From: a virus
Lineage: Duplodnaviria; Heunggongvirae; Uroviricota; Caudoviricetes
Direction: 5' to 3' (one strand)
Length of the DNA stretch: 64,000 bases
IMG/VR virus record: IMGVR_UViG_3300036944_000513
Location: 37,644 to 101,643 of that record
Below the pieces are notes generated by a model. The model saw nothing but the letters and a program-made list of their open reading frames with translations, was not told where the DNA came from and searched no databases. The position numbers and the translations under genes were made by a program. Below are positions 44,775 to 64,000 of this stretch, in pieces (within the stretch, counting starts at the first letter, position 1; each line of letters starts with the position of its first letter).

Positions 44775-44783
44775 AATAAAATC

Positions 44784-45038
44784 TTATTGGTTAATAAATT
44801 CCATAAATGCAGTTTTAGTCATTCCACCAATCTTACGATGAGTCTCGACTCCATTTTCATCAAGTAAAACCAATGCAGGAATACTTCTGATATTGAATTT
44901 ATTTGCCATTTCAGTATTTTCGTCAATGTCAATATTTTCAAGTTCTACTGGCAACTCTTGAGAAATTCCGGCAATAGTATCTGACAACATTTTACATGGT
45001 TGGCACCATGTTGCATGGAACTTTAAAACTTTTTTCAT
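44784..45038 (-). CDS. thioredoxin-like protein
   Basis: WCQPCK active site; in-frame ATG with an ATGA overlap to the upstream gene. Confidence 0.65.
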   Translation of the reverse strand: MKKVLKFHATWCQPCKMLSDTIAGISQELPVELENIDIDENTEMANKFNIRSIPALVLLDENGVETHRKIGGMTKTAFMEFINQ

Positions 45039-45481
45039 ATCTTTTCCTCTATAATTTTTACATAATCGCTGCAAATAGCATAGCAATTGGTGGGTAACTT
45101 TTTAAATTCTGGATCATTCCATTCGGGTAAAACTGCAATGCTTTTTTGTGTCAACTCTTTATTTGGATATGCCCATATCCATTTATGGCTGGTTATAACA
45201 TAATCGTCATTTTGATGCCAAAAATAATTGTAGGAAGTATCGGTTAGCCAACGTAATGCGCCCAAGTTTTTTGCATGTATCCAAAATCCAATATCGTTTA
45301 AAAACTCCATTGATATTGGATATGTTGGTTCATCATGCCCCAAATAAAGTTCGGAGTGTATTACCCATAAATCTATTTCACAATCAAACCCAAGTTTTCT
45401 TGCTAACAAAATTTGTGCTGGGCTATTTTCTATGGCGGGATTTGGGCCATCAATTAAGCCACGATGGGCAATCAATTTCAT
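45035..45481 (-). CDS. glycerophosphodiester phosphodiesterase-like (GDPD) protein
   Basis: N-terminal IAHRG...EN...E.D..., characteristic of GP-PDE. Confidence 0.5.
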   Translation of the reverse strand: MKLIAHRGLIDGPNPAIENSPAQILLARKLGFDCEIDLWVIHSELYLGHDEPTYPISMEFLNDIGFWIHAKNLGALRWLTDTSYNYFWHQNDDYVITSHKWIWAYPNKELTQKSIAVLPEWNDPEFKKLPTNCYAICSDYVKIIEEKI

Positions 45482-46845
45482 TTTGTATTATTTAAGAAAT
45501 AATTCAAATCCTCTGGAGTACCAATTCCCCACATATTTTCAATTTCTTTGATTCTAATCTTTTTATTATCTTCAATTGCTTCATTGAAAACTGGACACAC
45601 ATAAAATTCATTGTTGACCCGAATATTTTTCTCGATCATTTTTTCCGCATATTTTACATAATCCGAGCCCTTAGACCAATAATATACCCCAACGGTTGCA
45701 TTATCGGAGATTGGTTTTTTCTCTGCAACTTCTGCGACAAACCCATCATCGCCAAGTCTTGCATAACTCCATTTTGGATGAGTGGATTTAAATGTTAACA
45801 TACCAGCATCTATTCCATCTGCTTTAAATGCATACATTACATTGTTGCTGTTCCATTCAATATACTGGTCACTGTTTGCAATGACAAGTGGATCATCGTT
45901 ATCAATCAAATCCTTTGCCAACAAAGTAGTACACGCTGCACCCTCAGTTATCCCATCCAATTGAACAATTTTACAATTTGGAGCAATTAGATTAAGCAAA
46001 TATTGCAAATTATACTTTTCATAATGTGATTTTTGAACTAAGAAAATATAGTTTGCTTGGATATTGAGATTCTCAACAACCACCTGAATCATCGGCTTAC
46101 CTCTAACATCAATTAAAGGCTTTGGAAATGTGTAGCCCTGAGTCTGGAATCTAGAGCCAGCCCCCGCCATAGGAATTAGCACATTTAACTTACTATCTTT
46201 CCATGGAATGGAAGTATTAACAGAATTTTTCATATCATTTATTTTATTAAATATTTTCTCAAATGTAACATCATGGCTATTTTCAACTGCCAATAAATTA
46301 GCGCCGCTATTTAATGCGCCTTCTCTTCCAATGTGACTATCTTCTACGATAATAGTATCTTTGGGCAATACATGCAATGCAGTCATACATTTCCAGTACA
46401 TTTCTGGATATGGTTTTGGGTGTTTAACGTCCTGATTACTTACAAAATAATCAACATACTCAATTACACCAATTTTTAGTAAACTTAATTTTACTGTTTC
46501 TCTGATGCTATTACTTGCAACGGCAATTAAATATCCGGCACTTTTAGCATACTTAAATATATCAATTAATTTTTTATCTATTGGAAAATTAGAAATCAAT
46601 TCCAATGTTGCAGATTGCTTCATTTCCCAAATTAAATTGTGGGAAGAGCTTGGCAATCCTTTTAACTTTGTTAAAATTTCTAATTTTTTAGTAGTATTTA
46701 ATCCATCATATGTAGAAAGATGTTCTTCTCTAGTAATTATATACTTCTCATCAATTTTAGCCAATGACATATTGAGTGTTTGGTAATGTAATTCTCTGCT
46801 TTCGATTAGAACTCCATCCAAATCAAATATTATAAGTTTATTCAT
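45478..46845 (-). CDS. bifunctional HAD-family phosphatase / sugar-phosphate nucleotidyltransferase
   Basis: N-terminal FDLDGVLIES (HAD motif I, beta-PGM-like); C-terminal LIPMAGAGSRF...PKPLIDVRGKPMI (NTP-transferase G-x-G-x-R motif). Confidence 0.6.
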   Translation of the reverse strand: MNKLIIFDLDGVLIESRELHYQTLNMSLAKIDEKYIITREEHLSTYDGLNTTKKLEILTKLKGLPSSSHNLIWEMKQSATLELISNFPIDKKLIDIFKYAKSAGYLIAVASNSIRETVKLSLLKIGVIEYVDYFVSNQDVKHPKPYPEMYWKCMTALHVLPKDTIIVEDSHIGREGALNSGANLLAVENSHDVTFEKIFNKINDMKNSVNTSIPWKDSKLNVLIPMAGAGSRFQTQGYTFPKPLIDVRGKPMIQVVVENLNIQANYIFLVQKSHYEKYNLQYLLNLIAPNCKIVQLDGITEGAACTTLLAKDLIDNDDPLVIANSDQYIEWNSNNVMYAFKADGIDAGMLTFKSTHPKWSYARLGDDGFVAEVAEKKPISDNATVGVYYWSKGSDYVKYAEKMIEKNIRVNNEFYVCPVFNEAIEDNKKIRIKEIENMWGIGTPEDLNYFLNNTK

Positions 46846-53096: not shown

Positions 53097-53792
53097 TCAA
53101 GTATTTAAAAGCGATTGGCATTTTTCATAAAAACGCTTTTGATTTCCGGGCATTCTGATTTGGAAATTATGATAAGACATTTCTCCAATAGAATCATTGC
53201 CATACGTTGTTCCAATGCCATATACTGGCATGCCATCGGCTAGGGGCCAATTGGGAGCTTCTCTGGGAGCAGCTTCAAATTTGATGGGCATAAACAACTC
53301 AATAGGTATATTACACTCTTCTGCCTTAAAAGTCAATTCTTCTGCCATATCTCCGCGATAAGTTTCTCTAAAAGATGGGCGACCAATTTTATTATAAGTT
53401 TCCATACTAAATGCAATCAAACTTGGAGCAGCAAATACGTGTTGATTATTTTGAATATGATTTGATCGTTGAGCATTACCAATTAAAATTCCTGATGCAG
53501 ATTGGGTGGCGAGGTAATCCAATGTTTTATCGGACAATGGAACACAATCAATATCAAGAATGATAATATTATCATATCCCATATCGTCTCTGGAATCATT
53601 AAGTTTAATAAATTCATCTACTCCATCTCCATTGTTATCAACCGTGGGCATTGGGCATTGCACCCGAATATGTGGAAATTTAGATACATTAAATTTTTCA
53701 ACCACCTGTCGTTGAGCCTCAACTGTTGCCTCATGAATGTTTGGCATAAAAAATGATACGATGCAAGTTCTCATGTGTTTTCTTCTTTCCAT
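53097..53792 (-). CDS. putative GT-A-fold glycosyltransferase (DxD motif)
   Basis: IIILDIDCVP is DxD-like; 231 aa. The start may instead be the second ATG, at 53774. Confidence 0.4.
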   Translation of the reverse strand: MERRKHMRTCIVSFFMPNIHEATVEAQRQVVEKFNVSKFPHIRVQCPMPTVDNNGDGVDEFIKLNDSRDDMGYDNIIILDIDCVPLSDKTLDYLATQSASGILIGNAQRSNHIQNNQHVFAAPSLIAFSMETYNKIGRPSFRETYRGDMAEELTFKAEECNIPIELFMPIKFEAAPREAPNWPLADGMPVYGIGTTYGNDSIGEMSYHNFQIRMPGNQKRFYEKCQSLLNT

Positions 53793-54619
53793 TGTTTAAT
53801 GTGTTCAATAACGTCAATTTTTGGGTTCCAGTTAGGAACATTATTCTTTGTACAAATTGTATCTTGCAACTCATACTTTCTATCCTCGATAAGCTGCAAT
53901 GGATGGGTAAATGCTCTAGCCAATTCCATAATAGATACATTTTTACCGGTTCCAAGATGATATGCATCTTCATAATCAGTAACATTAACTAAAATGTTCA
54001 ATGCGTCAACTGTATCTTCGACTGAGGTAAAATCGCGTTTACGAGTACCATCGCCAACAATTGTAAGTGGCTTATTTTCCAATACTAGCTGCTTGAATTT
54101 TCTAATGACGGTGGTATGTTCTCCGAGATCTTTTTCTCTCATTGAACCATATACGTTGTAGAATTTAACCAGACTATTTTGAATTTTGAATACTGTGCGA
54201 TAGAATTCTAATAGATAATCACACATATATTTTGAGAACGTATATGGATTATTGAATCTATCGGTAAATTCGGTAGTAGAAGATGACGCAAAGAATAAAT
54301 GACCTGAGCCAGTACGTCTAATATATTCACATAATGCAACAGTGCTGTTGTAATTATTTAATAGAGTTTCCTCTGTATATTCAAACGATCTAACAATTCT
54401 GGCACAGTTTGCAAGATGAAAAATCTTATCATACTTATAATCAAACTTGTGGCAAAACTCATCAACGCCCATTACAAAGGTTATGGCTTTATCATTTCTA
54501 TTTTCGAGTTTACCTGTGCTAATATTATCGACTACATGAACTTCATGTCCGCCATCAATAAATTTATCAACAAGATGACTTCCAACAAAGCCAAGCCCAC
54601 CTGTCACTAAAATTTTCAT
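53771..54619 (-). CDS. NAD-dependent sugar epimerase/dehydratase (SDR extended family)
   Basis: MKILVTGGLGFVGSHLV (GxxGxxG) and a YxxxK motif (YTFSK). Confidence 0.7.
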   Translation of the reverse strand: MKILVTGGLGFVGSHLVDKFIDGGHEVHVVDNISTGKLENRNDKAITFVMGVDEFCHKFDYKYDKIFHLANCARIVRSFEYTEETLLNNYNSTVALCEYIRRTGSGHLFFASSSTTEFTDRFNNPYTFSKYMCDYLLEFYRTVFKIQNSLVKFYNVYGSMREKDLGEHTTVIRKFKQLVLENKPLTIVGDGTRKRDFTSVEDTVDALNILVNVTDYEDAYHLGTGKNVSIMELARAFTHPLQLIEDRKYELQDTICTKNNVPNWNPKIDVIEHIKQWKEENT

Positions 54620-55368
54620 TATTTACTTTCTTTCACCCAAGGTAATTTGCCGTTTAAATAATTCGACATTACCTTATTACCATTTATAAAAAATTCTTTT
54701 TGCACAGAATTTGGAGTATTACCTGCTCGGTAATTAACTGAGTATTTATACGTAGAATCAAAATCCAGATACTTATTACTCAAGAAATTATAAATTGCCC
54801 TATCAATTTCCATGACTCCCGGCTGTCTAAATTTCCTATACCAAATTGGCGACATTTCTATTGCAATATTTTTTGGAATAATGTAACAATTTACATCAAC
54901 AAAAAAGTCATTTGAATTTATAACAGTATGCCATTGCCCAAGACTTTCACAGTTATCTTGGCACAAGAAATTGCTATCTGCATCAATGATGTTTCTAAGG
55001 GAATATGCCCATACATTAGGCTTCTTAGTCACTGCATGTACCATTGATGCTACGTGGCCTCTTTCTAACGTGTTATCGTCATCCAGATAGATGACATAAT
55101 CACCTTTCATTAGATAAGTACACGCACCATAAATTCGATGCCCATTGTATCCATCTTCGCCAACTGAATATGGCAAAATAATGAATTCAGTATTTGCGTT
55201 ACCATACTTATAGATAGCGCTCATGGCATCGCCTTGGCGGTGTTTACCATCAACTACTACCAGATGTTGTATGTTCTTATATGTTTGCTCTGCAACGCTT
55301 TTAAGAGTGTACTCCAGAAATTTGGAGCCAGTGGTCGCAGTTATAATTGTTACTAATGGTTCAGACAT
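54619..55368 (-). CDS. family 2 glycosyltransferase
   Basis: TIITATTGSKFLEYTLKSVAEQTY...VVVDG...YLDDDN (GT2 DxD). Confidence 0.65.
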   Translation of the reverse strand: MSEPLVTIITATTGSKFLEYTLKSVAEQTYKNIQHLVVVDGKHRQGDAMSAIYKYGNANTEFIILPYSVGEDGYNGHRIYGACTYLMKGDYVIYLDDDNTLERGHVASMVHAVTKKPNVWAYSLRNIIDADSNFLCQDNCESLGQWHTVINSNDFFVDVNCYIIPKNIAIEMSPIWYRKFRQPGVMEIDRAIYNFLSNKYLDFDSTYKYSVNYRAGNTPNSVQKEFFINGNKVMSNYLNGKLPWVKESK

Positions 55369-56074
55369 TTGATTTATATCCCTTTATCATTCTATCATCA
55401 AAGACCCAAAGATGGTCTATATCATATTTTTTTCTGTAATGCCAAATATCAGGCTCAGAAATTTCAAGTCGCGGCGTAACTGGTTTGGTATGCTTTACTG
55501 GATACTTATCAATGAATGCAACCCAGCCACCTAACTCAGTTCTACCAGTATAAGATTCTAGCACCCATTGCCAAGAATATTCTAATCCATATCCCATACT
55601 ATATGGAGCAGTATCAAAGTCAAATACGCAATTAGCAAATGCTTTTTGCGAGAAAAATGGACACATGATTTCAACAGTATTAGTTATCCTAAAATCATAT
55701 CCTTCATGTTTCAATGTCTGGGGATGCGATATGTAACTATCATGAGTCAAAGTTGGCTGGCATAAATCAAATTTATGATACTTTGCCATTTTAAAAATAT
55801 TGTCTATTGTTTCTGGCGTAGTTTCAATATCATCATCAATATTTCCAATAAACTCATACTTAGAATATATTTCAGGAGTTATATGACGCTTCATCAATGG
55901 GAATTTATATCCCTTGTCTTTTATTACCCACTTTGCTTTATTAATAACTTCGGGTGAGTAATCCGCATCATCATAAATCAATAAAAAAACATCAAAGTTG
56001 TATTGAGAATAATCTCCCCACTTTTGATGTAATGCATCTTTACCGCAACATATTACTAGTAAATTTGGCTTCAT
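55361..56074 (-). CDS. putative nucleotide-diphospho-sugar transferase-like protein
   Basis: LLIYDDAD and GNIDDD acidic motifs; 237 aa. Confidence 0.4.
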   Translation of the reverse strand: MKPNLLVICCGKDALHQKWGDYSQYNFDVFLLIYDDADYSPEVINKAKWVIKDKGYKFPLMKRHITPEIYSKYEFIGNIDDDIETTPETIDNIFKMAKYHKFDLCQPTLTHDSYISHPQTLKHEGYDFRITNTVEIMCPFFSQKAFANCVFDFDTAPYSMGYGLEYSWQWVLESYTGRTELGGWVAFIDKYPVKHTKPVTPRLEISEPDIWHYRKKYDIDHLWVFDDRMIKGYKSNV

Positions 56075-57069
56075 AAAAATACATCCTTAAATTTGCTCAT
56101 TACCAACTCAGGGGAGAATGATTTAACTCTTTTACTCCATTCAATATTAGTCATGCTAGGCAACTCTTGAATTTTATCAATTAAATTTGATTCTTCATAA
56201 AGAAGTCCAGAGTTATTTAACATCAAAAGATGATTTAAGTCATGTCCACCATTAAATGCTAATATCGGCTTATTTAAGTATAGAAATTCTGCAATGGATA
56301 GTCCAAAAGATTCGCCCCGCATTCTAGCATGAATTCCCGCATCGCATGAATTGATAATATCAGTTTTTAATTGAACATCATGAATCTCTTGCGTAAATTT
56401 TACATTTGGATGATTTATCCATGGAGCAGTGCCAATAAACAAGAATACAAATTTATCGGTTTTAGATACCAAATATTCAATTTGCTTTTTAACAAACTCA
56501 ATATCAAAAGTATAATATCCACCAATTCTACCAATTAAAAATTGATCAGGTCTTACGCCAAGCATATCTCTATAATTCTTGGTTGGCTCCGGCAACTTTA
56601 CAATATGTGGAACATATGGAACTTTTTGTTTTGTGATAGAATATACATGCCTAGATAGCCATTCTGAAATATATGCATACCTATCTCCATGCGGCTCAAA
56701 TTCTTGAAACACGCAATGCACAGCAGTCTTGGCAGTATTAATAACTTTCTCATCAAATGCATCATATGGAAGTTCTTGTGCTTTGCAACCAGCCTTAATA
56801 AAATATGCAAGATCGAGATTTTCTTTCTCGCATATGTTACTAACTTCTCTGAATGCATGATCGCCATTATAACCAATAACTTCAAATTCTTCTTTGAATT
56901 TATCTATTACTGCTTGCTCGTTGCCTTCATCTTTTACATATTTGTGATTAGAATTATATAAGATTACGCTTTCATTCCCCAATATTTCTTGGTTATATCT
57001 AGCGTAATCTCGTACTGCAACAGCAACACCTCTATAATTTAGAGTATGTGTATGAAACAGAACTTTCAT
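56071..57069 (-). CDS. GT-B glycosyltransferase (GT4-like)
   Basis: The C-terminal GESFGLSIAEFLYLNKPILA matches the GT4 E-x7-E region. Confidence 0.55.
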   Translation of the reverse strand: MKVLFHTHTLNYRGVAVAVRDYARYNQEILGNESVILYNSNHKYVKDEGNEQAVIDKFKEEFEVIGYNGDHAFREVSNICEKENLDLAYFIKAGCKAQELPYDAFDEKVINTAKTAVHCVFQEFEPHGDRYAYISEWLSRHVYSITKQKVPYVPHIVKLPEPTKNYRDMLGVRPDQFLIGRIGGYYTFDIEFVKKQIEYLVSKTDKFVFLFIGTAPWINHPNVKFTQEIHDVQLKTDIINSCDAGIHARMRGESFGLSIAEFLYLNKPILAFNGGHDLNHLLMLNNSGLLYEESNLIDKIQELPSMTNIEWSKRVKSFSPELVMSKFKDVFL

Positions 57070-58361
57070 CAGTTATCCCATTTTTCCAATACAGACTCGA
57101 TATATGAAAATACCGCATCATTATAATGAGGTGGGCAACCAACAAAGAATACATGACTCAATGCCCGATTTGCATTTGGATATTTTGTATAGTCATCTAG
57201 ATGTTTGTAACCGGGATGCATTAGAATATTGCCAGCAAAATAGTTGCGAGTTTGAATCTTATTTGCTTCTAAGTGTTTTTGCAAACGTTCTTTTTGAATT
57301 TGGCTACGGCAAATAATAGGAACTCCAAACCAACTTGGATCAGCTAGATCATGATGTGATGCAACACGAATTCCGTTGACATGATTAGTCAAAATACTTT
57401 GAAACTTAATTTTATTCTCTCGGCGAGACTTGTCAACAATTTCCATTTTGTCAAGTTGTGCCAATCCGATGGAACCTTGCATATCCAATGGCTTTAGATT
57501 GTATCCCATGTTTGTAAATAGATACTTGTGGTCAATGACGCCCTCATAGCCATCAAGCCACTTATCAAAGCGTTTGCCGCATGTGCCACATGGCAATAGA
57601 TTATTAGCACCTACGCAGTAGCAATCACGACCCCACCATGCAATGCTTCTAACAGTATTCATGAAATCTGCATCATTGGAGCAAATCATTCCACCTTCAC
57701 CCGTAGTAATATGATGAGCAGGATAGAACGAAGTTGTCCATGCAGTATAATATTCAGTTAGAAATTCACCATTCCAGCGTGAACCAAGACTATCGCAGTT
57801 ATCACCAATCAACATGATATCATGGTCAAATGCAAGTTGTTGCAAATAATCCATATCAGGAGGATTGCCCAATACTGGAGACACGAAAATAGCTACAGTT
57901 TTATCAGTAATCTTTTCTGCAATCTTTGTTACATCAAAGTTTAATGTATTGAGTTCAATATCAACGAATACTGGAGTAAGATTGTTTTGTGCAATTGGCG
58001 CAATTGTAGTTGGGAATCCAACGGGAGAAACAATAATCTCTGCACCATCTTCCCATTTATAGAATTTTTTAAGTGCAGTAATAAGCACTAGATTGGCTGA
58101 ACTGCCAGAGTTAACCATGTGTGCATGTTCGACATTGAACATGGTAGCAAACTTCTCTTGAAACTTCTGAACTTGTTCACCTGATGGCAACCATGCACCA
58201 GTTAGAAAAGTCTTCATTGCACCATAAATTTCATTATGATCCCACAATGGGCCAGCATAATAAACGGGACTTACTCCGGGAACAAATGTTTCTTGATTGT
58301 AGGTGTATGGAGGCTTAACAGTTTTGCTAATTTCCATGAGAATTTCATCTAGATTTTCCAT
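57069..58361 (-). CDS. DegT/DnrJ/EryC1-family PLP-dependent enzyme (CDP-4-keto-6-deoxyglucose 3-dehydrase DdhC/RfbH-like)
   Basis: 430 aa with N-terminal region and overall length typical of E1 dehydrases and sugar aminotransferases; SGSSANL. Confidence 0.6.
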   Translation of the reverse strand: MENLDEILMEISKTVKPPYTYNQETFVPGVSPVYYAGPLWDHNEIYGAMKTFLTGAWLPSGEQVQKFQEKFATMFNVEHAHMVNSGSSANLVLITALKKFYKWEDGAEIIVSPVGFPTTIAPIAQNNLTPVFVDIELNTLNFDVTKIAEKITDKTVAIFVSPVLGNPPDMDYLQQLAFDHDIMLIGDNCDSLGSRWNGEFLTEYYTAWTTSFYPAHHITTGEGGMICSNDADFMNTVRSIAWWGRDCYCVGANNLLPCGTCGKRFDKWLDGYEGVIDHKYLFTNMGYNLKPLDMQGSIGLAQLDKMEIVDKSRRENKIKFQSILTNHVNGIRVASHHDLADPSWFGVPIICRSQIQKERLQKHLEANKIQTRNYFAGNILMHPGYKHLDDYTKYPNANRALSHVFFVGCPPHYNDAVFSYIESVLEKWDN

Positions 58362-58439
58362 AATTTTTCATTCTGTAGTCAAAGGGGGTTAATGTAAGCG
58401 TCAATTATAATATAGCTTTAATATAATATCAATACATAT

Positions 58440-58634
58440 TTATATTCTTCCAAGTAGCCAATCTAACATTTCGTCTTCTTGGAGCGCGTAGCCTTGGTCT
58501 TGGTAATATTCTTTACAGTCTTTGCAGTAGTGACCGTATTTGGAGGTGCGATTTTTGTTTTCGTCGAACGATTTGATAGAGAGATAAAAGCCGCCCCCTT
58601 CTTTGATATCGTGACCACAGGTTCCAGTGAGCAT
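58440..58634 (-). CDS. hypothetical Cys-rich protein
   Basis: CGHD...YCKDCKEYY. Confidence 0.4.
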   Translation of the reverse strand: MLTGTCGHDIKEGGGFYLSIKSFDENKNRTSKYGHYCKDCKEYYQDQGYALQEDEMLDWLLGRI

Positions 58635-58819
58635 GAATGATAATCCTCGTATTCTTGTTTTGTTATTTTCTTATACGTGGTATTATTTATCCATTCTATG
58701 CTTTCATTAGTTCTTAGCATACTGGTCAACTCAAATCCTCTACAATAAAGATCATGGGTGAATCCATGTTTCCATACTGTAGTTAAACAAATATAATCGT
58801 CGCGGGTAACACTATCCAT
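58463..58819 (-). CDS. hypothetical protein (frame conflict with 58440..58634; possible frameshift)
   Basis: The in-frame ATG at 58819 avoids overlap with the tRNA. The N-terminal half looks protein-like, whereas the C-terminal half is low-complexity and overlaps the Cys-rich ORF in another frame. Confidence 0.3.
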   Translation of the reverse strand: MDSVTRDDYICLTTVWKHGFTHDLYCRGFELTSMLRTNESIEWINNTTYKKITKQEYEDYHSCSLEPVVTISKKGAAFISLSNRSTKTKIAPPNTVTTAKTVKNITKTKATRSKKTKC

Positions 58820-58837
58820 ATTATTTTTATTATATTT

Positions 58838-58912
58838 TGGTCCGGGATGACGGAATCGAACCGCCATTTAGGGAGTAGAAATCCCCTGTATTATCCATTA
58901 TACGAATCCCAG
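58838..58912 (-). tRNA. tRNA-Arg (anticodon UCU)
   Basis: 75-nt cloverleaf: 7-bp acceptor stem, GTAT/ATAC D-stem, anticodon loop TT-TCT-AC, T-arm GGCGG-TTCGATT-CCGTC, encoded CCA. Confidence 0.85.
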
Positions 58913-58967
58913 ATAATTTATTCCGCTTACGTTTATGCGGAAACACCTAAGTGTTCGTGGGGTCTAA

Positions 58968-59213
58968 TTACTTAGAAAATACGTCTGCACCAAACATTTT
59001 GTATGCCAATGCAACCGCAGTTGTGCTATCACCGAGTTGGTAAAAAGTTCCGGTCTTGGTTTTGGTGGTATAGATTGCGTGACCCTCTGAGCGGAGTTCG
59101 CTAATGCGACCATGAACGGAATGACTTCCACCCGCAGCAACCATCGATACCAATTTAGCAGCACTAACTTGTTTACCGCTCTTCAAGACTTTCAAAATTT
59201 TTGCTTTAAGCAT
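58968..59213 (-). CDS. hypothetical winged-helix-like DNA-binding protein
   Basis: 81 aa; an HTH-like segment AAKLVSMVAAGGSHSVHGRISELRSEGH. Confidence 0.4.
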   Translation of the reverse strand: MLKAKILKVLKSGKQVSAAKLVSMVAAGGSHSVHGRISELRSEGHAIYTTKTKTGTFYQLGDSTTAVALAYKMFGADVFSK

Positions 59214-59270
59214 AATATAACTCCATAAAATAAATTAAAAAATATGCAGTAGCTACCGCATGCTCACATT

Positions 59271-59477
59271 CTACAACAATTCATCTTCATTGTCAAGAGA
59301 AATTTTATCTAAAGTTGATTTTAATTTATCTCGGTAGTCCATCCCACCAGTTTTAATTTGTAATCTTATAGGATGCAATAACACATTTACTAACTTATTT
59401 GAAAAATCTTCTAACACAATGTTAGCATCTTTTCCGTTCTTTAATTGTATTATTGCCTTCTCTATATGATTACTCAT
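59271..59477 (-). CDS. hypothetical protein
   Basis: 68-aa ORF. Confidence 0.4.
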   Translation of the reverse strand: MSNHIEKAIIQLKNGKDANIVLEDFSNKLVNVLLHPIRLQIKTGGMDYRDKLKSTLDKISLDNEDELL

Positions 59478-59667
59478 TCAATAGAGTTTTATTTGCTGGG
59501 ATTGAATTTTCTGGCATAGTTTCAGTCAATGGCTTATATTGAGTATTGTCAATATATTCAACCATTACTTCTTTTCCAAAAATTTCATTCCATCGTGTAG
59601 CATATTCTAAATTAGAAACGCTAAATGGTCTAGGAGAACTGCCTTTTCCGCCGTCTGATGTTGCCAT
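59470..59667 (-). CDS. hypothetical protein
   Basis: 65-aa ORF. Confidence 0.4.
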   Translation of the reverse strand: MATSDGGKGSSPRPFSVSNLEYATRWNEIFGKEVMVEYIDNTQYKPLTETMPENSIPANKTLLNE

Positions 59668-59683
59668 ATAATTACCTTAAAAA

Positions 59684-59760
59684 TGGTGCGACTTGTTGGG
59701 CTCGAACCAACGACCAATCGATTATGAGTCGAATGCTCTGACCAACTGAGCTAAAGTCGC
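59684..59760 (-). tRNA. tRNA-Met (anticodon CAU; elongator-type, or a lysidine-modified tRNA-Ile2)
   Basis: 77-nt cloverleaf: acceptor GCGACTT/AAGTCGC, D-arm GCTC/GAGC, anticodon loop CT-CAT-AA, T-arm GTTGG-TTCGAGC-CCAAC, encoded CCA. Confidence 0.85.
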
Positions 59761-59805
59761 ATAGAGAACCAGTCCGTACCAAATGAGGCAGAGGGACTAG
59801 CCGTG

Positions 59806-60300
59806 TTAAACTGCTGCTTCTGCTTGCTCCTGTTCAGCCAGAATACGTTTCAATCTATCAGCACAGAAGCTGGCTGCGGGAGCATCTGGTTTAACCATTG
59901 GTGTCATGTTACATGTACCTTTGATATAACCAATTGCTTGCTGAACCACGCAAGAGCTTCCATGCTCATCGGATTTGTTCAAATCCAAATGAACTTCTAC
60001 GTGACGATCTTCAAGAACATCTTGCAATTCTTGGAACAATTCAGAAACTTTATAGACTTCTGACATTAAACGCAAAGCTGGCTTAGATTTTTTGTGGTCG
60101 TAGTCAATTTCACGTTGAACATAACCAAAAATCTTGCAACCATGTTTGCCATCAATATGAACAACTACCGCCAAAGCATAGTCCGCATACCAAACTCCAT
60201 CAATGCGGATTCTTTCCGAATCTGCCCCAAGATAGATTTTTGTTTCTGGCCCCTGTGCCAAGATGAACTCTTTAGTTTTAGCTATGTCGAAGGTTTTCAT
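59806..60300 (-). CDS. conserved hypothetical protein (possible RNase-H-like fold)
   Basis: In-frame ATG at 60300 (the track start is TTG); 165 aa; KIYLGADSERIRIDGVWYADYALAVVVHIDG. Confidence 0.45.
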   Translation of the reverse strand: MKTFDIAKTKEFILAQGPETKIYLGADSERIRIDGVWYADYALAVVVHIDGKHGCKIFGYVQREIDYDHKKSKPALRLMSEVYKVSELFQELQDVLEDRHVEVHLDLNKSDEHGSSCVVQQAIGYIKGTCNMTPMVKPDAPAASFCADRLKRILAEQEQAEAAV

Positions 60301-60331
60301 TTCATGTACCAATGTAGTTAATGTGTGACGG

Positions 60332-60360
60332 ATTGTACCATCGTTTTTCAATGTTGTCAA
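60332..60360 (-). promoter_or_regulatory. sigma70-type promoter (-35 TTGACA, 17 bp, -10 TACAAT)
   Basis: Read on the minus strand, upstream of 59806..60300. Confidence 0.45.
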
Positions 60361-60399
60361 GCATTACATGTATTTATACGACTTTGAAGATAAAAAACA

Positions 60400-60407
60400 T
60401 ATAAATA
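60400..60407 (+). promoter_or_regulatory. T4-type late promoter box TATAAATA
   Basis: Exact box in the divergent intergenic region, heading the plus-strand block 60495..64000. A second box lies on the minus strand at 60371..60378. Confidence 0.45.
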
Positions 60408-60494
60408 TAGGGAATAAGTAAAATTAAATTATAGTGATTGCAGATTTATACTATTGGTTGATTATATCATCTAATCCATTAAATCCGCCCTATA

Positions 60495-60713
60495 ATGTTT
60501 GCACATATTCTAGCATTTCAGCTTTCATCTGTCCACGTTTTACCATATGAAAATTATAATCATTGGTCAAAATTAAAGGAAGTCTGCGAAAGTAAATCGT
60601 CAATCAATGGTAAACCAGTAACCTATTCCGCAAATGAATATGTTAAATCTGGTAGTGGAAATTCGTTCGTTATTTGCAGATGGGCATTAGTGCCATTAAA
60701 GGATAAAAAATGA
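60495..60713 (+). CDS. hypothetical protein
   Basis: 72 aa; ATGA coupling to the next gene. Confidence 0.4.
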   Translation: MFAHILAFQLSSVHVLPYENYNHWSKLKEVCESKSSINGKPVTYSANEYVKSGSGNSFVICRWALVPLKDKK

Positions 60714-61201
60714 TAGATCCATTTACCGCTTTCGCTATGGCTCAGGGGGCAGTTAAAGGAATTAAGGCAGCAATTGCATTGGGCAAAGATGTTAAAGGTC
60801 TTATAGACGATTTTAGCAAGTTTTATTCAAGTGCAGATGCGGTGCATGCGGCAAGCACCAAAATGAAAATTGATAATATCGGGAAAACCGATGCCCAAAT
60901 AAGTTCAGATGCTTTAAAAATTGCAATGGCATCTAAAGCATTAAGAGAGCATGAGAAAGAATTAAAGGATATTTTATTTTGGTCAGGTAATGCGCCGGTA
61001 TGGGAAGAAATGATGGCAGAGCGCACACGTATGACCAAAGAACGTAATGCAGCAGAAAAAGCAATTGCTGATAAGAAGCAAAAAGATAGAGAAGCAATGT
61101 ACAATTTATTCATGAATATGTTAATTTTTATTGCATGCGTTGCACTCTCTGCGCCTATTATATGGCTAACTTTTTATGTAATAACGAATCGAGGATTTTA
61201 A
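60710..61201 (+). CDS. hypothetical protein with a C-terminal TM anchor
   Basis: AAGGA SD; C-terminal LIFIACVALSAPIIWLTFYVI. Confidence 0.5.
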   Translation: MIDPFTAFAMAQGAVKGIKAAIALGKDVKGLIDDFSKFYSSADAVHAASTKMKIDNIGKTDAQISSDALKIAMASKALREHEKELKDILFWSGNAPVWEEMMAERTRMTKERNAAEKAIADKKQKDREAMYNLFMNMLIFIACVALSAPIIWLTFYVITNRGF

Positions 61202-61202
61202 A

Positions 61203-61811
61203 GTGGCAATATATATGCAAATTGGTGCGGGGGCAGGGGACAGAGATTCTAGATTAGATTTCAGAGACGGATTTACTGAGTTAGTTAAAAAACAAGATAA
61301 AAGTACAATTGATAAAATAATTTTAATCGAGCCCAATTTAACAAATATTCCAGAATTAACCGTATGCTGGAAAGATTATCCACAGGCAGTTATTTATCAA
61401 ATTGGTATATGTCTAGAATCTGCAATGGAAAAGTCTATAACATTTTTTTATGTAGAAGAAGATGCGCCACATTTTCAAGTATTTTCCATGAATAAAGAAC
61501 ATGTCCAAAAACACTATCCAGATAAAGAAATTAAATCAAAAATTGTTCAATGCAAAACGTTAATAGAATTTTTAAATGAAAATTTAAATGGGGCGTCTAT
61601 TGATACATTGGCAATAGACATTGAAGGAATAGACGCCGAATTAGTTTTAGAAACAGATTGGACTAAAATAGATTGCAGATATATTTCCATTGAGCATTTA
61701 CATTTAGGAGATAATTCAGAAAAAGTAAAACAGAAATTGATAGATGCGGGATACAAATATAATGGAGATGGAATAGATCATAAAGGGTATGATTGGTCAT
61801 TTATAAAATAA
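61203..61811 (+). CDS. FkbM-family methyltransferase
   Basis: MQIGAGAGD (SAM-binding glycine loop) and AIDIEGIDAELVL (the FkbM DIEG.E motif); GTG start with a GAGGAT SD. Confidence 0.6.
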   Translation: MAIYMQIGAGAGDRDSRLDFRDGFTELVKKQDKSTIDKIILIEPNLTNIPELTVCWKDYPQAVIYQIGICLESAMEKSITFFYVEEDAPHFQVFSMNKEHVQKHYPDKEIKSKIVQCKTLIEFLNENLNGASIDTLAIDIEGIDAELVLETDWTKIDCRYISIEHLHLGDNSEKVKQKLIDAGYKYNGDGIDHKGYDWSFIK

Positions 61812-61829
61812 ATAATAAAGGATTTTAGA

Positions 61830-62624
61830 GTGAAAAAATATAAAACAATTTTTATATCGGATATCCATTTAGGAACGCGGGATTGTAAAGCAGATAAATT
61901 AATTAATTTCTTAAAAAATAATAGCTGTGAAACATTATATCTAGTCGGGGATATTATTGATGCTTGGAGAATACAGCAAAATAAATGGCAGTGGAAACAA
62001 AGTCACACCAATGTAGTTAGAAGTATACTTAATCATGCTAAAAAGGGAACTAAAATCATTTATGTGACAGGGAATCACGATGAGTTTCTAAGACCACTTA
62101 TTCCTTATAGCATTGGATTTGGTAATGTAGAGATATTAAATCAAGTCACACATGTGGGAGTGGATGGTAAAAAATATCTCGTAATACACGGTGATTTATT
62201 TGATGGCATTACTAAACTGGCTCCGTGGATATCTTTCCTTGGAGATAAAGCGTATGACTTTATTTTAGGAGTTAATAATAAATACAACTGGATTCGCCAT
62301 AAATTTGGATTTGGATATTTTAGTATCAGTCGATATCTAAAGCATAAAGTAAAAACTGCGGTTGATTTTATTTTTAAATTTGAAGAAAATCTTACTAAGT
62401 ATTGTAAGAAACGTGGATTTGATGGCGTGATTTGTGGGCATATTCATCATGCTGAAATAAAAGAAATCGATGGAATTGCTTATATGAATGATGGTGATTG
62501 GGTTGAATCTTGTACCGCTTTGGTAGAACACCATGACGGAAGATGGGAAATTATTACTTGGACATTGGAAAAAGATAATGAAAAGAATTCTAATAATAAC
62601 GGACAATCTACCGGGCCAAATTAA
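61830..62624 (+). CDS. LpxH-family metallophosphoesterase (UDP-2,3-diacylglucosamine pyrophosphatase-like)
   Basis: FISDIHLG, LYLVGDIIDAWRI, YVTGNHDEF, LVIHGDLFDG, ICGHIHHAEIKEI and DGDWVESCTALV track the E. coli LpxH motif order (FIADLHLC, LYILGDLFEAWIGDD, FIHGNRDFL, LIMHGDTL, LIHGHTHRPAVHEL, GAWHTEG). Confidence 0.6.
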   Translation: MKKYKTIFISDIHLGTRDCKADKLINFLKNNSCETLYLVGDIIDAWRIQQNKWQWKQSHTNVVRSILNHAKKGTKIIYVTGNHDEFLRPLIPYSIGFGNVEILNQVTHVGVDGKKYLVIHGDLFDGITKLAPWISFLGDKAYDFILGVNNKYNWIRHKFGFGYFSISRYLKHKVKTAVDFIFKFEENLTKYCKKRGFDGVICGHIHHAEIKEIDGIAYMNDGDWVESCTALVEHHDGRWEIITWTLEKDNEKNSNNNGQSTGPN

Positions 62625-63579
62625 TGGCGTAGTTACTACATTTAGCAATATTGAACGCATCGCTAAGGAAGATGGGTATGAATTTTTTTATATCAATCCT
62701 GAGCAATTTACATATATAAATGCATATGGATATCCAGAAGTAAAATTATCTTTCCCATGGAGAATTGGGAAGAAAATCAGGGAAATAAATCCAGATTATA
62801 TTCATATAGCAACTGAGGGGCCAATAGGTCTGGCTGCAAGTCTATGGTGCTGGAAATATGATTATAAGTTTAATACCAGCTATCACACAAAATTTCCCGA
62901 ATTTTTAAAAGAAGTTTATGGAATACCGACATGGATAACATATCGGTATGTCAAGTGGTTTCATAGACATTCTGGCAAAGTATTAACAACGACTCAGACA
63001 ATGGTCGATGATTTACATGCACATGGATTTAAAACAAATATAATCCCATGGACACGCGGAGTTGACAGAAATATATTTAGAAGCGAGTTACGAAACGTAG
63101 AGAAAGTACATCCACCCGTATTATTAAGTGTTGGCAGAATAAGTAAAGAAAAGGGGCTCGATGATTTTTGTGAATTGAAATATCCAAAGGCAAAAAAGAT
63201 TATAGTTGGTGATGGGCCATATCGCAATGAATTGCAAGAAAAGTATCCAGACATAGAATTTGTTGGAACTAAAACTGGCGTAGAACTTGCAACTTATTAC
63301 GCAAATGCTGATGTGTTTGTATTTACTAGTAAACATGATACATTTGGGATAGTGATGATAGAAGCATTGGCAGTCGGCACACCAGTGGCGGCATATCCTG
63401 TTGCTGGCCCAAAAGATATTATACAGAATAGAAAGACTGGATATATGCACAGTGATTTAAAGTATGCGGTGAAACAGTCTCTTAGTATAAATAGAAAATT
63501 GATTGAATCCGAAAGTTTAAAATGGTCTTGGGATAATTGCTGGAAAATATTTAAAGAAAATTTAATAAAGGTAAAATAA
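62578..63579 (+). CDS. GT4-family glycosyltransferase
   Basis: N-terminal KRILIITDNLPGQINGVVTTFSNI is typical of GT4 (SqdX- and glycolipid-synthase-like); the C-terminus has E-x7-E (TFGIVMIEALAVGTPV). Confidence 0.65.
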   Translation: MKRILIITDNLPGQINGVVTTFSNIERIAKEDGYEFFYINPEQFTYINAYGYPEVKLSFPWRIGKKIREINPDYIHIATEGPIGLAASLWCWKYDYKFNTSYHTKFPEFLKEVYGIPTWITYRYVKWFHRHSGKVLTTTQTMVDDLHAHGFKTNIIPWTRGVDRNIFRSELRNVEKVHPPVLLSVGRISKEKGLDDFCELKYPKAKKIIVGDGPYRNELQEKYPDIEFVGTKTGVELATYYANADVFVFTSKHDTFGIVMIEALAVGTPVAAYPVAGPKDIIQNRKTGYMHSDLKYAVKQSLSINRKLIESESLKWSWDNCWKIFKENLIKVK

Positions 63580-63932
63580 TGGCAGAAAAAACAGCAGAAT
63601 CAGCACACGAAAAAGGTGCATTTATAGAGAAATTATTATTTGCTCTATTACCATTGTTAGTAGGATCAGTTGGATATTTAATATCTGCACTGGGCGCATT
63701 ACAGCACGATGTAACTATTCTAAATCAAAAAGTAAGTCTTGTTGTCACAACAGATAACAAACAAGCTAGTAACACTGGTGCAGAACTTGCACGTGAAAAA
63801 TTACGTCAAGATTTAGAAAAAGAAATCCAAAAGAACCGCGATATGATTGGTGAAAATCGTCAGCACATTGCTATTTTAGAGGAAAAAATAGGTGCTTCGA
63901 AAAAAATAGGATCAATATCTAGTAAGGATTGA
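63579..63932 (+). CDS. membrane-anchored coiled-coil protein
   Basis: TM segment LLFALLPLLVGSVGYLISALGAL followed by coiled-coil sequence; TAATG overlap. Confidence 0.45.
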   Translation: MAEKTAESAHEKGAFIEKLLFALLPLLVGSVGYLISALGALQHDVTILNQKVSLVVTTDNKQASNTGAELAREKLRQDLEKEIQKNRDMIGENRQHIAILEEKIGASKKIGSISSKD

Positions 63933-63934
63933 GA

Positions 63935-64000
63935 ATGACAGAAGAAAAATTATCACGCAGCGAACGTGAAGCAAAGATCAAAGATAAAGCGGGATGGGTA
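63935..64000 (+). CDS. hypothetical protein (5' fragment, runs off the window end)
   Basis: ATG with an AAGGA SD; the frame stays open to the end of the window. Confidence 0.35.
   Translation, partial: MTEEKLSRSEREAKIKDKAGWV

What the first reader, a model, noticed from the sequence alone, without database searches (positions are those of the whole stretch)
60400..63579. Late-promoter-driven plus-strand operon: FkbM methyltransferase, LpxH-like pyrophosphatase and GT4 glycosyltransferase
After the two tRNAs the coding strand switches. A TATAAATA late-promoter box (60400) heads five coupled genes. These include an FkbM-family methyltransferase, a protein whose six metallophosphoesterase motifs follow E. 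coli LpxH (UDP-2,3-diacylglucosamine hydrolase) in order and spacing, and a GT4 glycosyltransferase whose N-terminus resembles glycolipid and sulfolipid synthases. An LpxH-like UDP-sugar pyrophosphatase paired with a lipid-type GT4 and a methyltransferase in a phage is unusual. It could consume or modify host UDP-diacyl-glucosamine or lipid A precursors, or build a methylated glycolipid or glycan during late infection.
Basis: partly seen in the sequence, partly recalled or inferred. Interest (0 to 1): 0.65.

Follow-up and report, generated by a model that had tools for sequence, protein, structure and literature searches.

The report
Phage-borne phospholipid-to-glycolipid remodelling cassette
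A T4-like phage carries the bacterial two-gene kit (phospholipase PlcP plus glycosyltransferase Agt) that swaps phosphorus-containing membrane lipids for sugar lipids; databases mislabel the first gene as the lipid A enzyme LpxH, and this kit appears not to have been described in phages.

Summary
TATAAATA sits at 60400, followed by tightly coupled plus-strand genes that include an FkbM methyltransferase, an LpxH-like metallophosphoesterase and a GT4 glycosyltransferase.

The interpretation needs correcting. The phosphoesterase is not LpxH. It scores 46 and 54 bits against curated LpxH models with cut-offs of 190 and 134. It has GNHD where LpxH has GNRD, and it is 19% identical to E. coli LpxH. 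It is 56% identical to P. aeruginosa PlcP and 46% to S. meliloti PlcP.

The GT4 is 38% identical over its full length to P. aeruginosa Agt1 and keeps the residues shown to be essential in the SAR11 enzyme GTcp. In 64 of 80 bacterial loci, and 28 of 80 viral loci, the two genes are adjacent in this order. That is the known plcP-agt lipid-renovation operon: phospholipid to diacylglycerol to glycolipid.

Sister phages have the same operon without these two genes, so they form an inserted cassette. FkbM is resident and probably serves the neighbouring sugar cluster.

Viral PlcP genes are numerous (at least 573 IMG/VR hits). Twenty-seven of the 80 best loci carry a Pho-box-like repeat upstream, and some lie next to pstS. 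This window has no such box. I found no paper describing phage PlcP.

The parts
60371..60378 (-). TATAAATA box facing the minus-strand RNaseH-like gene
   Evidence: Conserved in sister phages L171 and L173. Function not shown.
60400..60407 (+). TATAAATA box (candidate T4-type late promoter) 88 nt upstream of orf72
   Evidence: Conserved in L171 and L173. The motif is not enriched in the window (12 found, 7.9 expected). No sigma-70-like site heads the operon.
60495..60713 (+). orf72, resident phage gene of unknown function
   Evidence: No family hits. Present as a 72-aa gene in sister phages.
60710..61201 (+). orf163, membrane protein with a C-terminal hydrophobic segment at 128-160 (phrog_32327)
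   Evidence: Homologues lie near PlcP in 15 of 80 viral loci. Present in sister phages.
61203..61811 (+). FkbM-family methyltransferase (GTG at 61203, or ATG at 61215 as called in public gene sets). Resident gene, probably a sugar or glycan O-methyltransferase.
   Evidence: Pfam PF05050 46.6 bits. An 84%-identical copy occupies the same position in sister phages that lack the cassette. Bacterial homologues at about 50% identity sit in a flagellin-glycosylation island and a deoxysugar cluster.
61807..61814 (+). AATAAATA motif overlapping the FkbM stop codon, 16 nt before the PlcP start
   Evidence: Read. An ATAAATA motif also lies 11-24 nt before the PlcP start in many viral relatives. The sister phage has AAATAAAC at this site. 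Function not shown.
61845..63941 (+). Segment (PlcP, Agt, orf117) that replaces a 385-nt segment holding an unrelated 123-aa signal-peptide ORF in sister phages
   Evidence: blastn of the window against L171: 82-87% identity up to 61844 and again from 63942, with nothing between. orf117 and L171 orf123 are unrelated.
61830..62624 (+). PlcP-type Mn-dependent phospholipase C (metallophosphoesterase, LpxH-like fold with helical cap at residues 122-194)
62578..63579 (+). Agt/GTcp-type GT4 diacylglycerol glycosyltransferase (333 aa)
   Evidence: Pfam Glyco_transf_4 plus Glycos_transf_1. 38% identical over its full length to P. aeruginosa Agt1. Motifs GRISKEKG and FTSKHDTFG and the His, Thr-Arg and Trp residues are conserved. 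Syntenic with plcP in 64 of 80 bacterial loci.
63486..63493 (+). Second + strand TATAAATA, inside the 3' end of the GT4 gene and 86 nt before orf117
   Evidence: Function not shown.
63579..63932 (+). orf117, small membrane and coiled-coil protein (hydrophobic segment 13-41)
   Evidence: 91%-identical copies lie next to DUF4337 and PlcP in L101 and L165.
63935..64000 (+). 5' end of a DUF4337 gene (runs off the window)
   Evidence: Translation MTEEKLSRSEREAKIKDKAGWV. 91% nucleotide identity to the start of the L171 DUF4337 gene.

Best explanation
Window 61830-63579 is a two-gene lipid-renovation cassette acquired by a T4-like phage.

**Proposed mechanism.**
- Gene 1 is a PlcP-type Mn-dependent phospholipase C. 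It cleaves host membrane glycerophospholipids (PE, PG or PC) into diacylglycerol plus a phosphorylated head group.
- Gene 2 is an Agt/GTcp-type GT4. It transfers glucose or glucuronic acid from a UDP-sugar to that diacylglycerol, giving MGDG or GADG.
- The net effect during infection is that phosphorus locked in host phospholipids is released, most plausibly to feed phage DNA synthesis. Phosphorus-free glycolipids keep the membrane intact until lysis.

**Shown here:** family membership of both proteins by sequence, motifs, fold and conserved synteny; cassette insertion relative to sister phages; purifying selection; Pho-box and pstS linkage in viral relatives.

**Inferred:** the enzymatic activities in this phage, the phosphorus-scavenging benefit, and the timing of expression. 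Here the pair has no Pho box and is read with the upstream resident genes, possibly from the TATAAATA box at 60400.

The FkbM methyltransferase and the small membrane proteins are resident phage genes, not part of the lipid pathway.
For: **PlcP identity.**
- 56% identity to P. aeruginosa PlcP (E 6e-99). That locus has the PA3219-PA3218-cyclase layout.
- 46% identity to S. meliloti PlcP, next to sinI/sinR.
- Those two references are 47% identical to each other, matching the published 46% (PMC8528852).

**Not LpxH.**
- NCBIfam LpxH equivalogs score 54 and 46 bits against cut-offs of 134 and 190. E. coli LpxH scores 363 and 389.
- 19% identity to E. coli LpxH. The window has GNHD where E. coli, P. 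aeruginosa and K. pneumoniae LpxH have GNRD.

**Agt identity.**
- 38% full-length identity to Agt1.
- All residues found essential in GTcp are present: the His/Asp dyad with Asp in place of the usual GT4 Glu, motifs of the GRVAxEKN and FPSxTDTFG type, and the Thr-Arg and Trp residues that bind diacylglycerol (PMC8231724).

**Synteny.**
- The GT4 homologue lies directly downstream on the same strand in 64 of 80 bacterial loci. These include genera listed as plcP+agt carriers in PMC4796936 Table S2.
- The same holds in 28 of 80 viral loci.

**Cassette.** Sister phages lack exactly these genes.

**Constraint.** Against viral relatives, pN is 0.14-0.17 (PlcP) and 0.27-0.31 (GT4), while pS is 0.73-0.89, which is saturated.

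**Link to phosphorus.**
- A Pho-box-like repeat TGTMAY-N5-TGYMAY lies 38-61 nt upstream of PlcP in 27 of 80 viral loci, against 0.05 expected.
- Of the other 18 hits in 800 kb, 4 precede pstS genes.
- Phage Mosig has its PlcP gene divergent from pstS.
- There is precedent for host PhoB control of cyanophage pstS (PMC10976474).
Against: - No biochemical or expression data exist for this phage.
- The window has no Pho-box-like repeat anywhere, so phosphate control is not shown for this copy.
- The TATAAATA box is not statistically enriched.
- The cap region of the model has only moderate confidence (pLDDT 63-86).
- The GT4 is only 37-45% identical to bacterial Agt homologues, and its sugar donor is unknown.
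- The host is unknown, and so is whether it already owns plcP-agt.
- The P. aeruginosa and S. meliloti references are orthologues in other strains than those studied.
- The key-residue list for PlcP (Wei et al. 2018) could not be read.
- The NJ trees carry no support values.
Confidence: 0.75

Rival explanations
1. Same enzymology (PlcP makes diacylglycerol, Agt makes glycolipid), but a different benefit. The phage changes envelope lipid composition to alter receptors or membrane properties. That could block superinfection, stop progeny adsorbing to debris, or prepare lysis, rather than yield phosphorus.
For: - This copy has no Pho box.
- It sits among small membrane-protein genes (orf163, orf117, DUF4337) that recur next to PlcP in other phages.
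- It may be transcribed from a late-type box.
- Published work links host lipid renovation to phage receptors and attachment (PMC9804370; PMC9938194).
Against: - Many viral relatives carry Pho-box-like repeats, and some have pstS next to PlcP. That points to phosphorus stress as the selective context for the family.
- No direct evidence exists for exclusion.
Confidence: 0.15
2. One reading: an LpxH-type UDP-2,3-diacylglucosamine pyrophosphatase that consumes or diverts host lipid A precursors, coupled to a lipid-type GT4.
For: - LpxH is the closest solved structure, with a helical cap at the same position.
- The motif order is collinear.
- Databases name the whole family LpxH.
Against: - It fails both curated LpxH equivalog models by 80-145 bits, while E. 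coli LpxH passes.
- It has GNHD rather than GNRD.
- It is 19% identical to E. coli LpxH but 46-56% identical to characterised PlcPs.
- Published PlcP phylogenies use LpxH as the outgroup (PMC9239053).
- Bacterial homologues pair with agt, not with lipid A genes.
- From my own knowledge: Caulobacter and other Alphaproteobacteria use LpxI for this step.
Confidence: 0.04
3. FkbM, the phosphoesterase and the GT4 form one pathway that builds a methylated glycolipid or glycan.
For: The three genes are adjacent and translationally coupled. The phage also carries nucleotide-sugar genes.
Against: - Sister phages keep FkbM at the same place without the other two genes.
- None of 80 bacterial and 80 viral PlcP loci has an FkbM homologue.
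- FkbM's bacterial homologues lie in protein-glycosylation and deoxysugar clusters.
Confidence: 0.04
4. The cassette is a recent, functionless passenger in a hypervariable region.
For: It lies in a region that differs between close relatives. Its usual Pho-box promoter is missing.
Against: - Both ORFs are intact with all catalytic residues.
- Synonymous sites are saturated while pN stays at 0.14-0.31.
- The genes are tightly fitted into the operon by overlaps.
- The viral copies form one clade in NJ trees, with the window branching deepest.
Confidence: 0.02

Closest known systems
PlcP-Agt lipid-renovation operon of Proteobacteria (P. aeruginosa PA3219-PA3218; SAR11 HTCC7211 PB7211_983 and PB7211_960; S. 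meliloti SMc00171; A. tumefaciens Atu2297)
   Same: - The two families occur in the same order and on the same strand, overlapping or nearly so.
- Identity is 56% and 46% to PlcP and 38% to Agt1.
- The catalytic and substrate-binding residues are the same.
- Many viral relatives keep a Pho-box-type element upstream.
   Different: - It is encoded by a lytic T4-like phage.
- This copy has no Pho box and is embedded in a phage operon behind resident genes.
- Activity and sugar donor are untested.
LpxH (UDP-2,3-diacylglucosamine diphosphatase; PDB 5b49, 5k8k)
   Different: - 17-24% identity.
- GNHD instead of GNRD.
- Far below the curated LpxH thresholds.
- Partnered with a diacylglycerol glycosyltransferase rather than lipid A genes.
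Pho-regulon auxiliary genes of cyanophages and pelagiphages (pstS, phoA with Pho boxes)
   Same: These are host-derived phosphorus-stress genes carried by T4-like phages. Viral PlcP relatives carry Pho-box-like repeats, and several sit next to pstS.
   Different: These genes mobilise phosphorus from the cell's own membrane instead of importing it. The window copy lacks the box.
'UDP-2,3-diacylglucosamine hydrolase' genes of Pelagibacter phage Mosig (Mosig_00120) and Synechococcus phage S-SRM01
   Same: The same family (50% and 38% identity), also in T4-like Kyanoviridae. In Mosig the gene is divergent from pstS.
   Different: No Agt-type GT4 follows them. The genome papers I could read do not discuss them.

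Membership tests
LpxH (UDP-2,3-diacylglucosamine diphosphatase) | Reaches the curated score of the NCBIfam equivalog models TIGR01854 and NF003743 | tested here: not met
   Window: 46.2 bits (cut-off 190.35) and 54.1 bits (cut-off 134). E. coli LpxH control: 388.9 and 362.9 bits.
LpxH (UDP-2,3-diacylglucosamine diphosphatase) | GNRD in the third metallophosphoesterase motif (Arg in place of the usual His) | tested here: not met
   The window has GNHDEF. E. coli, P. aeruginosa and K. pneumoniae LpxH have GNRDF. That this Arg is a family signature is from my own knowledge.
LpxH (UDP-2,3-diacylglucosamine diphosphatase) | Calcineurin-like fold with a helical lipid-binding cap between motifs IV and V | tested here: met
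LpxH (UDP-2,3-diacylglucosamine diphosphatase) | Hydrolyses UDP-2,3-diacylglucosamine to lipid X | not testable with these tools
   Needs an enzyme assay or complementation.
PlcP (phospholipase C of lipid remodelling) | Close sequence relationship to experimentally characterised PlcPs, which are 46-51% identical to one another | tested here: met
   56% to P. aeruginosa PlcP and 46% to S. meliloti PlcP, nearly full length. Those references are 47% identical to each other. Published values are 46-51%. The references are orthologues identified by gene context in other strains.
PlcP (phospholipase C of lipid remodelling) | Intact dinuclear metal site (the enzyme is Mn-dependent) | tested here: met
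   D11, H13, D41, N82, H83, H120, H204 and H206 are invariant across 52 viral and bacterial homologues.
PlcP (phospholipase C of lipid remodelling) | Frequently forms an operon with a glycolipid glycosyltransferase (agt) | tested here: met
   In the window the genes overlap by 47 nt. The pairing occurs in 64 of 80 bacterial and 28 of 80 viral loci. Another 49 viral loci have a GT2/GT21-like gene instead.
PlcP (phospholipase C of lipid remodelling) | Pho box upstream (PhoB-dependent induction) | tested here: not met
   No TGTMAY-N5-TGTMAY repeat, even with one mismatch, occurs near the operon. It is present in 27 of 80 viral relatives.
PlcP (phospholipase C of lipid remodelling) | Releases diacylglycerol from glycerophospholipids | not testable with these tools
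   Needs an assay or lipidomics.
Agt/GTcp clade of GT4 (diacylglycerol glucosyl/glucuronosyl transferase) | GT-B GT4 architecture, about 334 aa | tested here: met
   333 aa. Pfam Glyco_transf_4 57 bits and Glycos_transf_1 82 bits.
Agt/GTcp clade of GT4 (diacylglycerol glucosyl/glucuronosyl transferase) | Motifs GRVAxEKN and FPSxTDTFG, with Asp replacing the canonical GT4 Glu; His/Asp dyad; diacylglycerol-binding Thr-Arg and Trp | tested here: met
   GRISKEKG, FTSKHDTFG, SYHTK, WTRG and SWDNCW are present and conserved in the alignment with agt-position homologues. GTcp itself could not be aligned directly.
Agt/GTcp clade of GT4 (diacylglycerol glucosyl/glucuronosyl transferase) | More than 25% identity to clade members (other GT4s fall below 25%) | tested here: met
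   38% to P. aeruginosa Agt1. 37-45% to 64 bacterial agt-position genes, including Labrenzia and Roseibium. Solved GT4 structures match only the C-terminal domain.
Agt/GTcp clade of GT4 (diacylglycerol glucosyl/glucuronosyl transferase) | Makes MGDG or GADG from diacylglycerol and a UDP-sugar | not testable with these tools
   Needs heterologous expression and lipid mass spectrometry.
FkbM methyltransferase family | Matches the family profile above its curated threshold | tested here: inconclusive
   Pfam PF05050 scores 46.6 bits, above its cut-off of 22.7. NCBIfam TIGR01444 scores 24.6 bits, below its cut-off of 37.7.
T4-type late promoter | TATAAATA upstream of late genes, more frequent than chance | tested here: inconclusive
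   An exact box lies at 60400 and is conserved in sister phages. The window total is 12 against 7.9 +/- 2.7 expected. The late sigma factor and transcripts were not examined.

The most novel reading that the evidence does not exclude
Large aquatic phages carry their own membrane lipid-renovation pathway. They convert host phospholipids into glycolipids during infection to mine membrane phosphorus for DNA synthesis. In many of these phages the pathway is wired to the host PhoB regulator through Pho boxes. In this phage it has been uncoupled from phosphate sensing and hard-wired into the phage's own transcription programme. This would be a new class of auxiliary metabolic gene, currently hidden under the 'LpxH / LPS biosynthesis' label in virome surveys.
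Probability: 0.5. Interest if true: 0.8.

Novelty: new member of a known kind. Interest (0 to 1): 0.66.

Why it matters
Lipid renovation (PlcP-Agt) is a major way in which marine and freshwater bacteria lower their phosphorus quota. Phosphorus is also the element phage replication demands most.

A phage-encoded version would add a new route to the known phage phosphorus toolkit (pstS, phoA, phoH). It would take phosphorus from the host's own membrane rather than from the water.

It would also change the lipid make-up of infected cells, which matters for lipid-based field measurements.

Virome studies that list 'lpxH' under lipopolysaccharide biosynthesis (for example PMC10653327, in surface oligotrophic water) may be counting this gene. 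That would alter how those surveys are read.

The Pho-box-like repeats in front of the viral genes give a directly testable case of host PhoB control outside cyanophages.

Tried and rejected
- **Nucleotide similarity.** megablast of 60300-64000 against isolated phages found nothing.
- **Longer source contig.** Exact look-ups for one gave only 1-3 kb contigs, so the genes downstream of the window end are known only from sister phages.
- **PlcP key residues.** The PlcP biochemistry paper (Wei et al. 2018) is not held. PlcP-specific key residues beyond the metal ligands could not be checked.
- **TATAAATA enrichment.** The test was negative.
- **Pho-box pattern on bacteria.** My strict pattern finds only 4 of 80 bacterial loci. 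It also misses the published P. aeruginosa box, CTGTCAC-N4-GTTTCAC. The low bacterial count therefore reflects the pattern, not absence.
- **LpxH function.** Rejected on curated thresholds, motif and identity.
- **FkbM in the lipid pathway.** Rejected on comparative grounds.
- **orf117 and sister-phage orf123 as homologues.** Rejected.
- **GT4 structure.** Not predicted, because no permitted homologue set was left for an alignment.
- **Literature.** Searches for phage-encoded PlcP found no paper. The library does not hold most subscription journals.


Full report
**What the window is.** The window is the replication region of a T4-like myovirus.
- On the minus strand it encodes a family B DNA polymerase, a DnaB-like helicase, UvsX, two RNA ligases, the gp45 clamp, the gp44/gp62 clamp loader and RegA.
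- Its clamp loader is 57-59% identical to those of the OM43 phage Melnitz and the pelagimyophages HTVC008M and Mosig.
- Between the clamp gene and two tRNA genes lies a sugar cluster: an RfbH-like PLP enzyme, an epimerase/dehydratase, a GT2, DUF707 and a GT1-like gene. The tRNAs are tRNA-Arg(tct) at 58838-58912 and tRNA-Met at 59684-59760.
- Further nucleotide-sugar genes lie at 43.9-46.8 kb.

**The observation.** After an RNaseH-like gene the coding strand switches.
- TATAAATA lies at 60400-60407. A second copy on the other strand at 60371-60378 faces the RNaseH-like gene.
- The plus-strand genes are orf72, orf163, FkbM, a metallophosphoesterase and a GT4, joined by overlaps or gaps of at most 18 nt.
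- The GT4 starts at the ATG at 62578 (MKRILIITDN...), not at 62533, judging from all homologues.
- There is no terminator-like site on the plus strand and no sigma-70-like site at the head of the block.
- TATAAATA occurs 12 times in the window against 7.9 +/- 2.7 expected, so the motif alone does not establish a late promoter.
- The whole intergenic region, both boxes included, is 87% conserved in sister phages.

**The phosphoesterase is PlcP, not LpxH.** It does look like LpxH.
- The alignment with E. coli LpxH is collinear.
- The AlphaFold model has mean pLDDT 81.6 and pTM 0.76. It places a helical insertion at residues 122-194 between the HGD and GHIHH motifs.

It nevertheless fails as a member of the LpxH family.
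- It scores 46 and 54 bits on the two curated NCBIfam LpxH equivalogs, whose cut-offs are 190 and 134. E. coli LpxH scores 389 and 363.
- It is 19% identical to E. coli LpxH.
- It has GNHDE where the E. coli, P. aeruginosa and K. pneumoniae enzymes have GNRD.

PLSDB holds chromosomal pieces mislabelled as plasmids, and these gave reference sequences.
- A P. aeruginosa locus has the layout phosphoesterase, glycosyltransferase, adenylate cyclase, matching PA3219-PA3218-PA3217.
- An S. meliloti locus lies next to sinI/sinR, matching SMc00171.
- The window protein is 56% identical to the first (E 6e-99) and 46% to the second (E 1e-88).
- The two references are 47% identical to each other, in line with the 46% published for PA3219 against S. 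meliloti PlcP (PMC8528852).
- Published PlcP phylogenies use LpxH as the outgroup (PMC9239053).

**The GT4 is Agt.**
- It is 38% identical over its full length to P. aeruginosa Agt1 (E 2e-83). Agt1 makes MGDG when expressed in E. coli (PMC8528852).
- The SAR11 enzyme GTcp and its relatives form a GT4 clade that is less than 25% identical to other GT4s. The clade is defined by a His/Asp dyad with Asp replacing the usual Glu, by the motifs GRVAxEKN and FPSxTDTFG, and by diacylglycerol-binding Thr-Arg and Trp (PMC8231724).
- The window protein has GRISKEKG, FTSKHDTFG, SYHTK, WTRG and SWDNCW at the corresponding places. All are conserved in an alignment with bacterial and viral genes that sit downstream of plcP.
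- Solved GT4 structures match only the C-terminal nucleotide-sugar domain.

**Conserved synteny.**
- A scan of one genome per species returned 599 relatives. The best 80 are 48-60% identical and come from Alpha-, Beta- and Gammaproteobacteria.
- In 64 of these 80, a full-length homologue of the window GT4 (37-45% identity in nearly all) lies directly downstream on the same strand.
- This is the 'type 2' plcP-agt arrangement of Sebastian et al. Their Table S2 lists Caulobacter, Labrenzia, Roseibium, Nitrobacter and P. aeruginosa among the carriers (PMC4796936). The same genera appear in my loci.
- No bacterial locus has a homologue of FkbM, orf72 or orf117.

**The pair is an inserted cassette.**
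- FkbM has an 84%-identical homologue on three metagenomic contigs (L171-L173). These share 82-87% nucleotide identity and gene order with window 56001-61844.
- In them FkbM is followed by an unrelated 123-aa signal-peptide ORF, then DUF4337 and an autotransporter-like gene.
- Window 61845-63941 (PlcP, Agt, orf117) replaces 385 nt there.
- FkbM is therefore resident. Its bacterial homologues (about 50% identity) lie in a flagellin-glycosylation island and a deoxysugar cluster. That fits the phage's own sugar genes better than a lipid role.

**The gene in other viruses.**
- Among isolated phages only Mosig (50%), S-SRM01 (38%) and a few metagenomic records have the gene. No isolated phage has a close relative of the GT4.
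- In IMG/VR at least 573 stretches encode a relative. The best 80 are 74-80% identical.
- Of these 80, 28 have the Agt-type GT4 downstream (51-63% identity), four of them after a RimK-like ATP-grasp gene. Another 49 have a GT2 of about 240 aa that also matches Pfam Glyco_transf_21.
- In NJ trees the viral PlcP and GT4 sequences each form one clade, with the window copy branching deepest. Methylotenera and then Hyphomonas are nearest to the PlcP clade (no support values).
- Against viral relatives synonymous sites are saturated (pS 0.73-0.89), while pN is 0.14-0.17 for PlcP and 0.27-0.31 for the GT4. Both genes have been kept under purifying selection in viral genomes.

**Link to phosphorus.**
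- Upstream of the viral PlcP genes there is a direct repeat such as TGTAATC-N4-TGTAATC or TGTAACA-N4-TGTAACA. It has the 7+4+7 layout of a Pho box (consensus CTGTCAT-N4-CTGTCAT).
- About 10 nt further on comes an ATAAATA or TAAATA element close to the start codon.
- A strict pattern hits 38-61 nt upstream of PlcP in 27 of 80 loci, where 0.05 hits are expected from the rest of the 800 kb.
- Of the 18 other hits, four precede pstS genes, three precede PlcP at a longer distance, and three precede an unknown protein of 214-232 aa.
- In Mosig the PlcP gene is divergent from pstS. The intergenic region holds TTAACA-N5-TTAACA followed by AATAAATA. This is suggestive only.
- Host PhoB control of phage pstS through Pho boxes is documented for cyanophages (PMC10976474).
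- The window itself has no such repeat.

**Most likely mechanism.**
- PlcP cleaves host glycerophospholipids to diacylglycerol and a phosphorylated head group.
- Agt glycosylates the diacylglycerol with a UDP-sugar.
- Phosphorus is freed for nucleotide synthesis while the bilayer is maintained.
- The family assignments are well supported. The activities, the benefit and the timing are inferred.
- If the operon is late, that coincides with DNA replication in T4-type phages, so late timing would not contradict a phosphorus-supply role.
- The main rival keeps the enzymology but proposes envelope remodelling for exclusion or lysis.

**Novelty.** The pathway is well known in bacteria. I found no paper that mentions PlcP in a phage. 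The pelagimyophage, Mosig and S-SRM01 papers do not discuss the gene. Virome surveys list 'lpxH' under LPS biosynthesis. The library lacks most subscription journals, so absence of a report is not proof.

Noticed in passing
L087-L166 (IMG/VR loci), 38-61 nt upstream of the PlcP start; e.g. L136, L087, L092: A Pho-box-like direct repeat (TGTAAYN-N4-TGTAAY) is followed after about 10 nt by ATAAATA or TAAATA, only 5-18 nt before the ATG. The downstream element fits the T4-type late core (NATAAATA) better than a sigma-70 -10 hexamer, and the leader would be very short. I did not resolve whether this is a PhoB-dependent promoter, a late promoter or a hybrid.
   Followed up: partly
L159:7803-8447, L143, L110 (IMG/VR): An unknown protein of 214-232 aa (MRFEDLAVRLVAVEAKL...) is preceded by the same Pho-box-like repeat and lies just downstream of the PlcP-glycosyltransferase pair. 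It has no Pfam hit. It is a candidate further member of a phage Pho regulon.
   Followed up: partly
L087:5627-6340 and 48 other IMG/VR loci; L003:6907-7626: In most viral relatives the gene after PlcP is not Agt. It is a GT2 of about 240 aa that also passes the Pfam Glyco_transf_21 cut-off (26.5 bits against 21.7). This may be a different glycolipid synthase partnered with PlcP.
   Followed up: partly
L100:1970-2857 and three other viral loci: A RimK-like ATP-grasp gene is inserted between PlcP and the Agt-type GT4.
   Followed up: no
window 53097-58361 (-) and 43947-46845 (-): The phage has its own nucleotide-sugar and glycan module: an RfbH-like PLP enzyme (NCBIfam RfbH 367 bits, cut-off 423), two epimerase/dehydratase genes, a HAD-nucleotidyltransferase fusion, a GT2, DUF707 and a GT1-like gene. 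TATAAATA lies at 58437-58444 (-), 76 nt upstream of the RfbH-like gene. FkbM probably belongs to this module.
   Followed up: partly
L171:7600-9840 (sister phage): A 747-aa protein with an autotransporter beta-domain follows DUF4337 in the sister phages. The same gene probably lies just beyond the end of the window.
   Followed up: no
window 60710-61201, 63579-63932, 63935-64000; L101, L165, L153: The small membrane-protein genes orf163, orf117 and DUF4337 recur next to PlcP in other viral contigs, in different orders (L165: orf117-DUF4337-PlcP-GT4). Either this is a shared hotspot for insertions or there is a functional link to the membrane.
   Followed up: partly
L003 / L090 (359-kb contig, also in IMG/VR): A very large viral contig carries PlcP-GT2 beside an IF-1-like gene, Fe/Mn superoxide dismutase, a LysM-chitinase-like gene and NifU/IscA-type Fe-S assembly genes.
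   Followed up: no
L133, L136, L139 (IMG/VR), upstream of PlcP: Porin or OmpA-like outer-membrane protein genes with signal peptides lie directly upstream of PlcP on contigs classed as viral. These are either phage-borne porins or host fragments in the collection.
   Followed up: no
window 32574-33371 (-), 19911-20810 (-), 34098-35144 (-): An SPFH/Band 7 membrane protein and two different RNA ligases (T4 Rnl1-like, and an RNA_ligase with an OB-fold domain) sit in the replication module.
   Followed up: no
L179 (CP090106.1) and L178 (NZ_CP137508.1) in the plasmid collection: The 3.72-Mb S. meliloti record labelled pSymB carries the sinI/sinR region, which I know as chromosomal (SMc locus tags) in strain 1021. 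The 96-kb P. aeruginosa 'plasmid' carries the gene layout of the chromosomal PA3217-PA3219 region. Both look like mislabelled chromosomal sequence.
   Followed up: no
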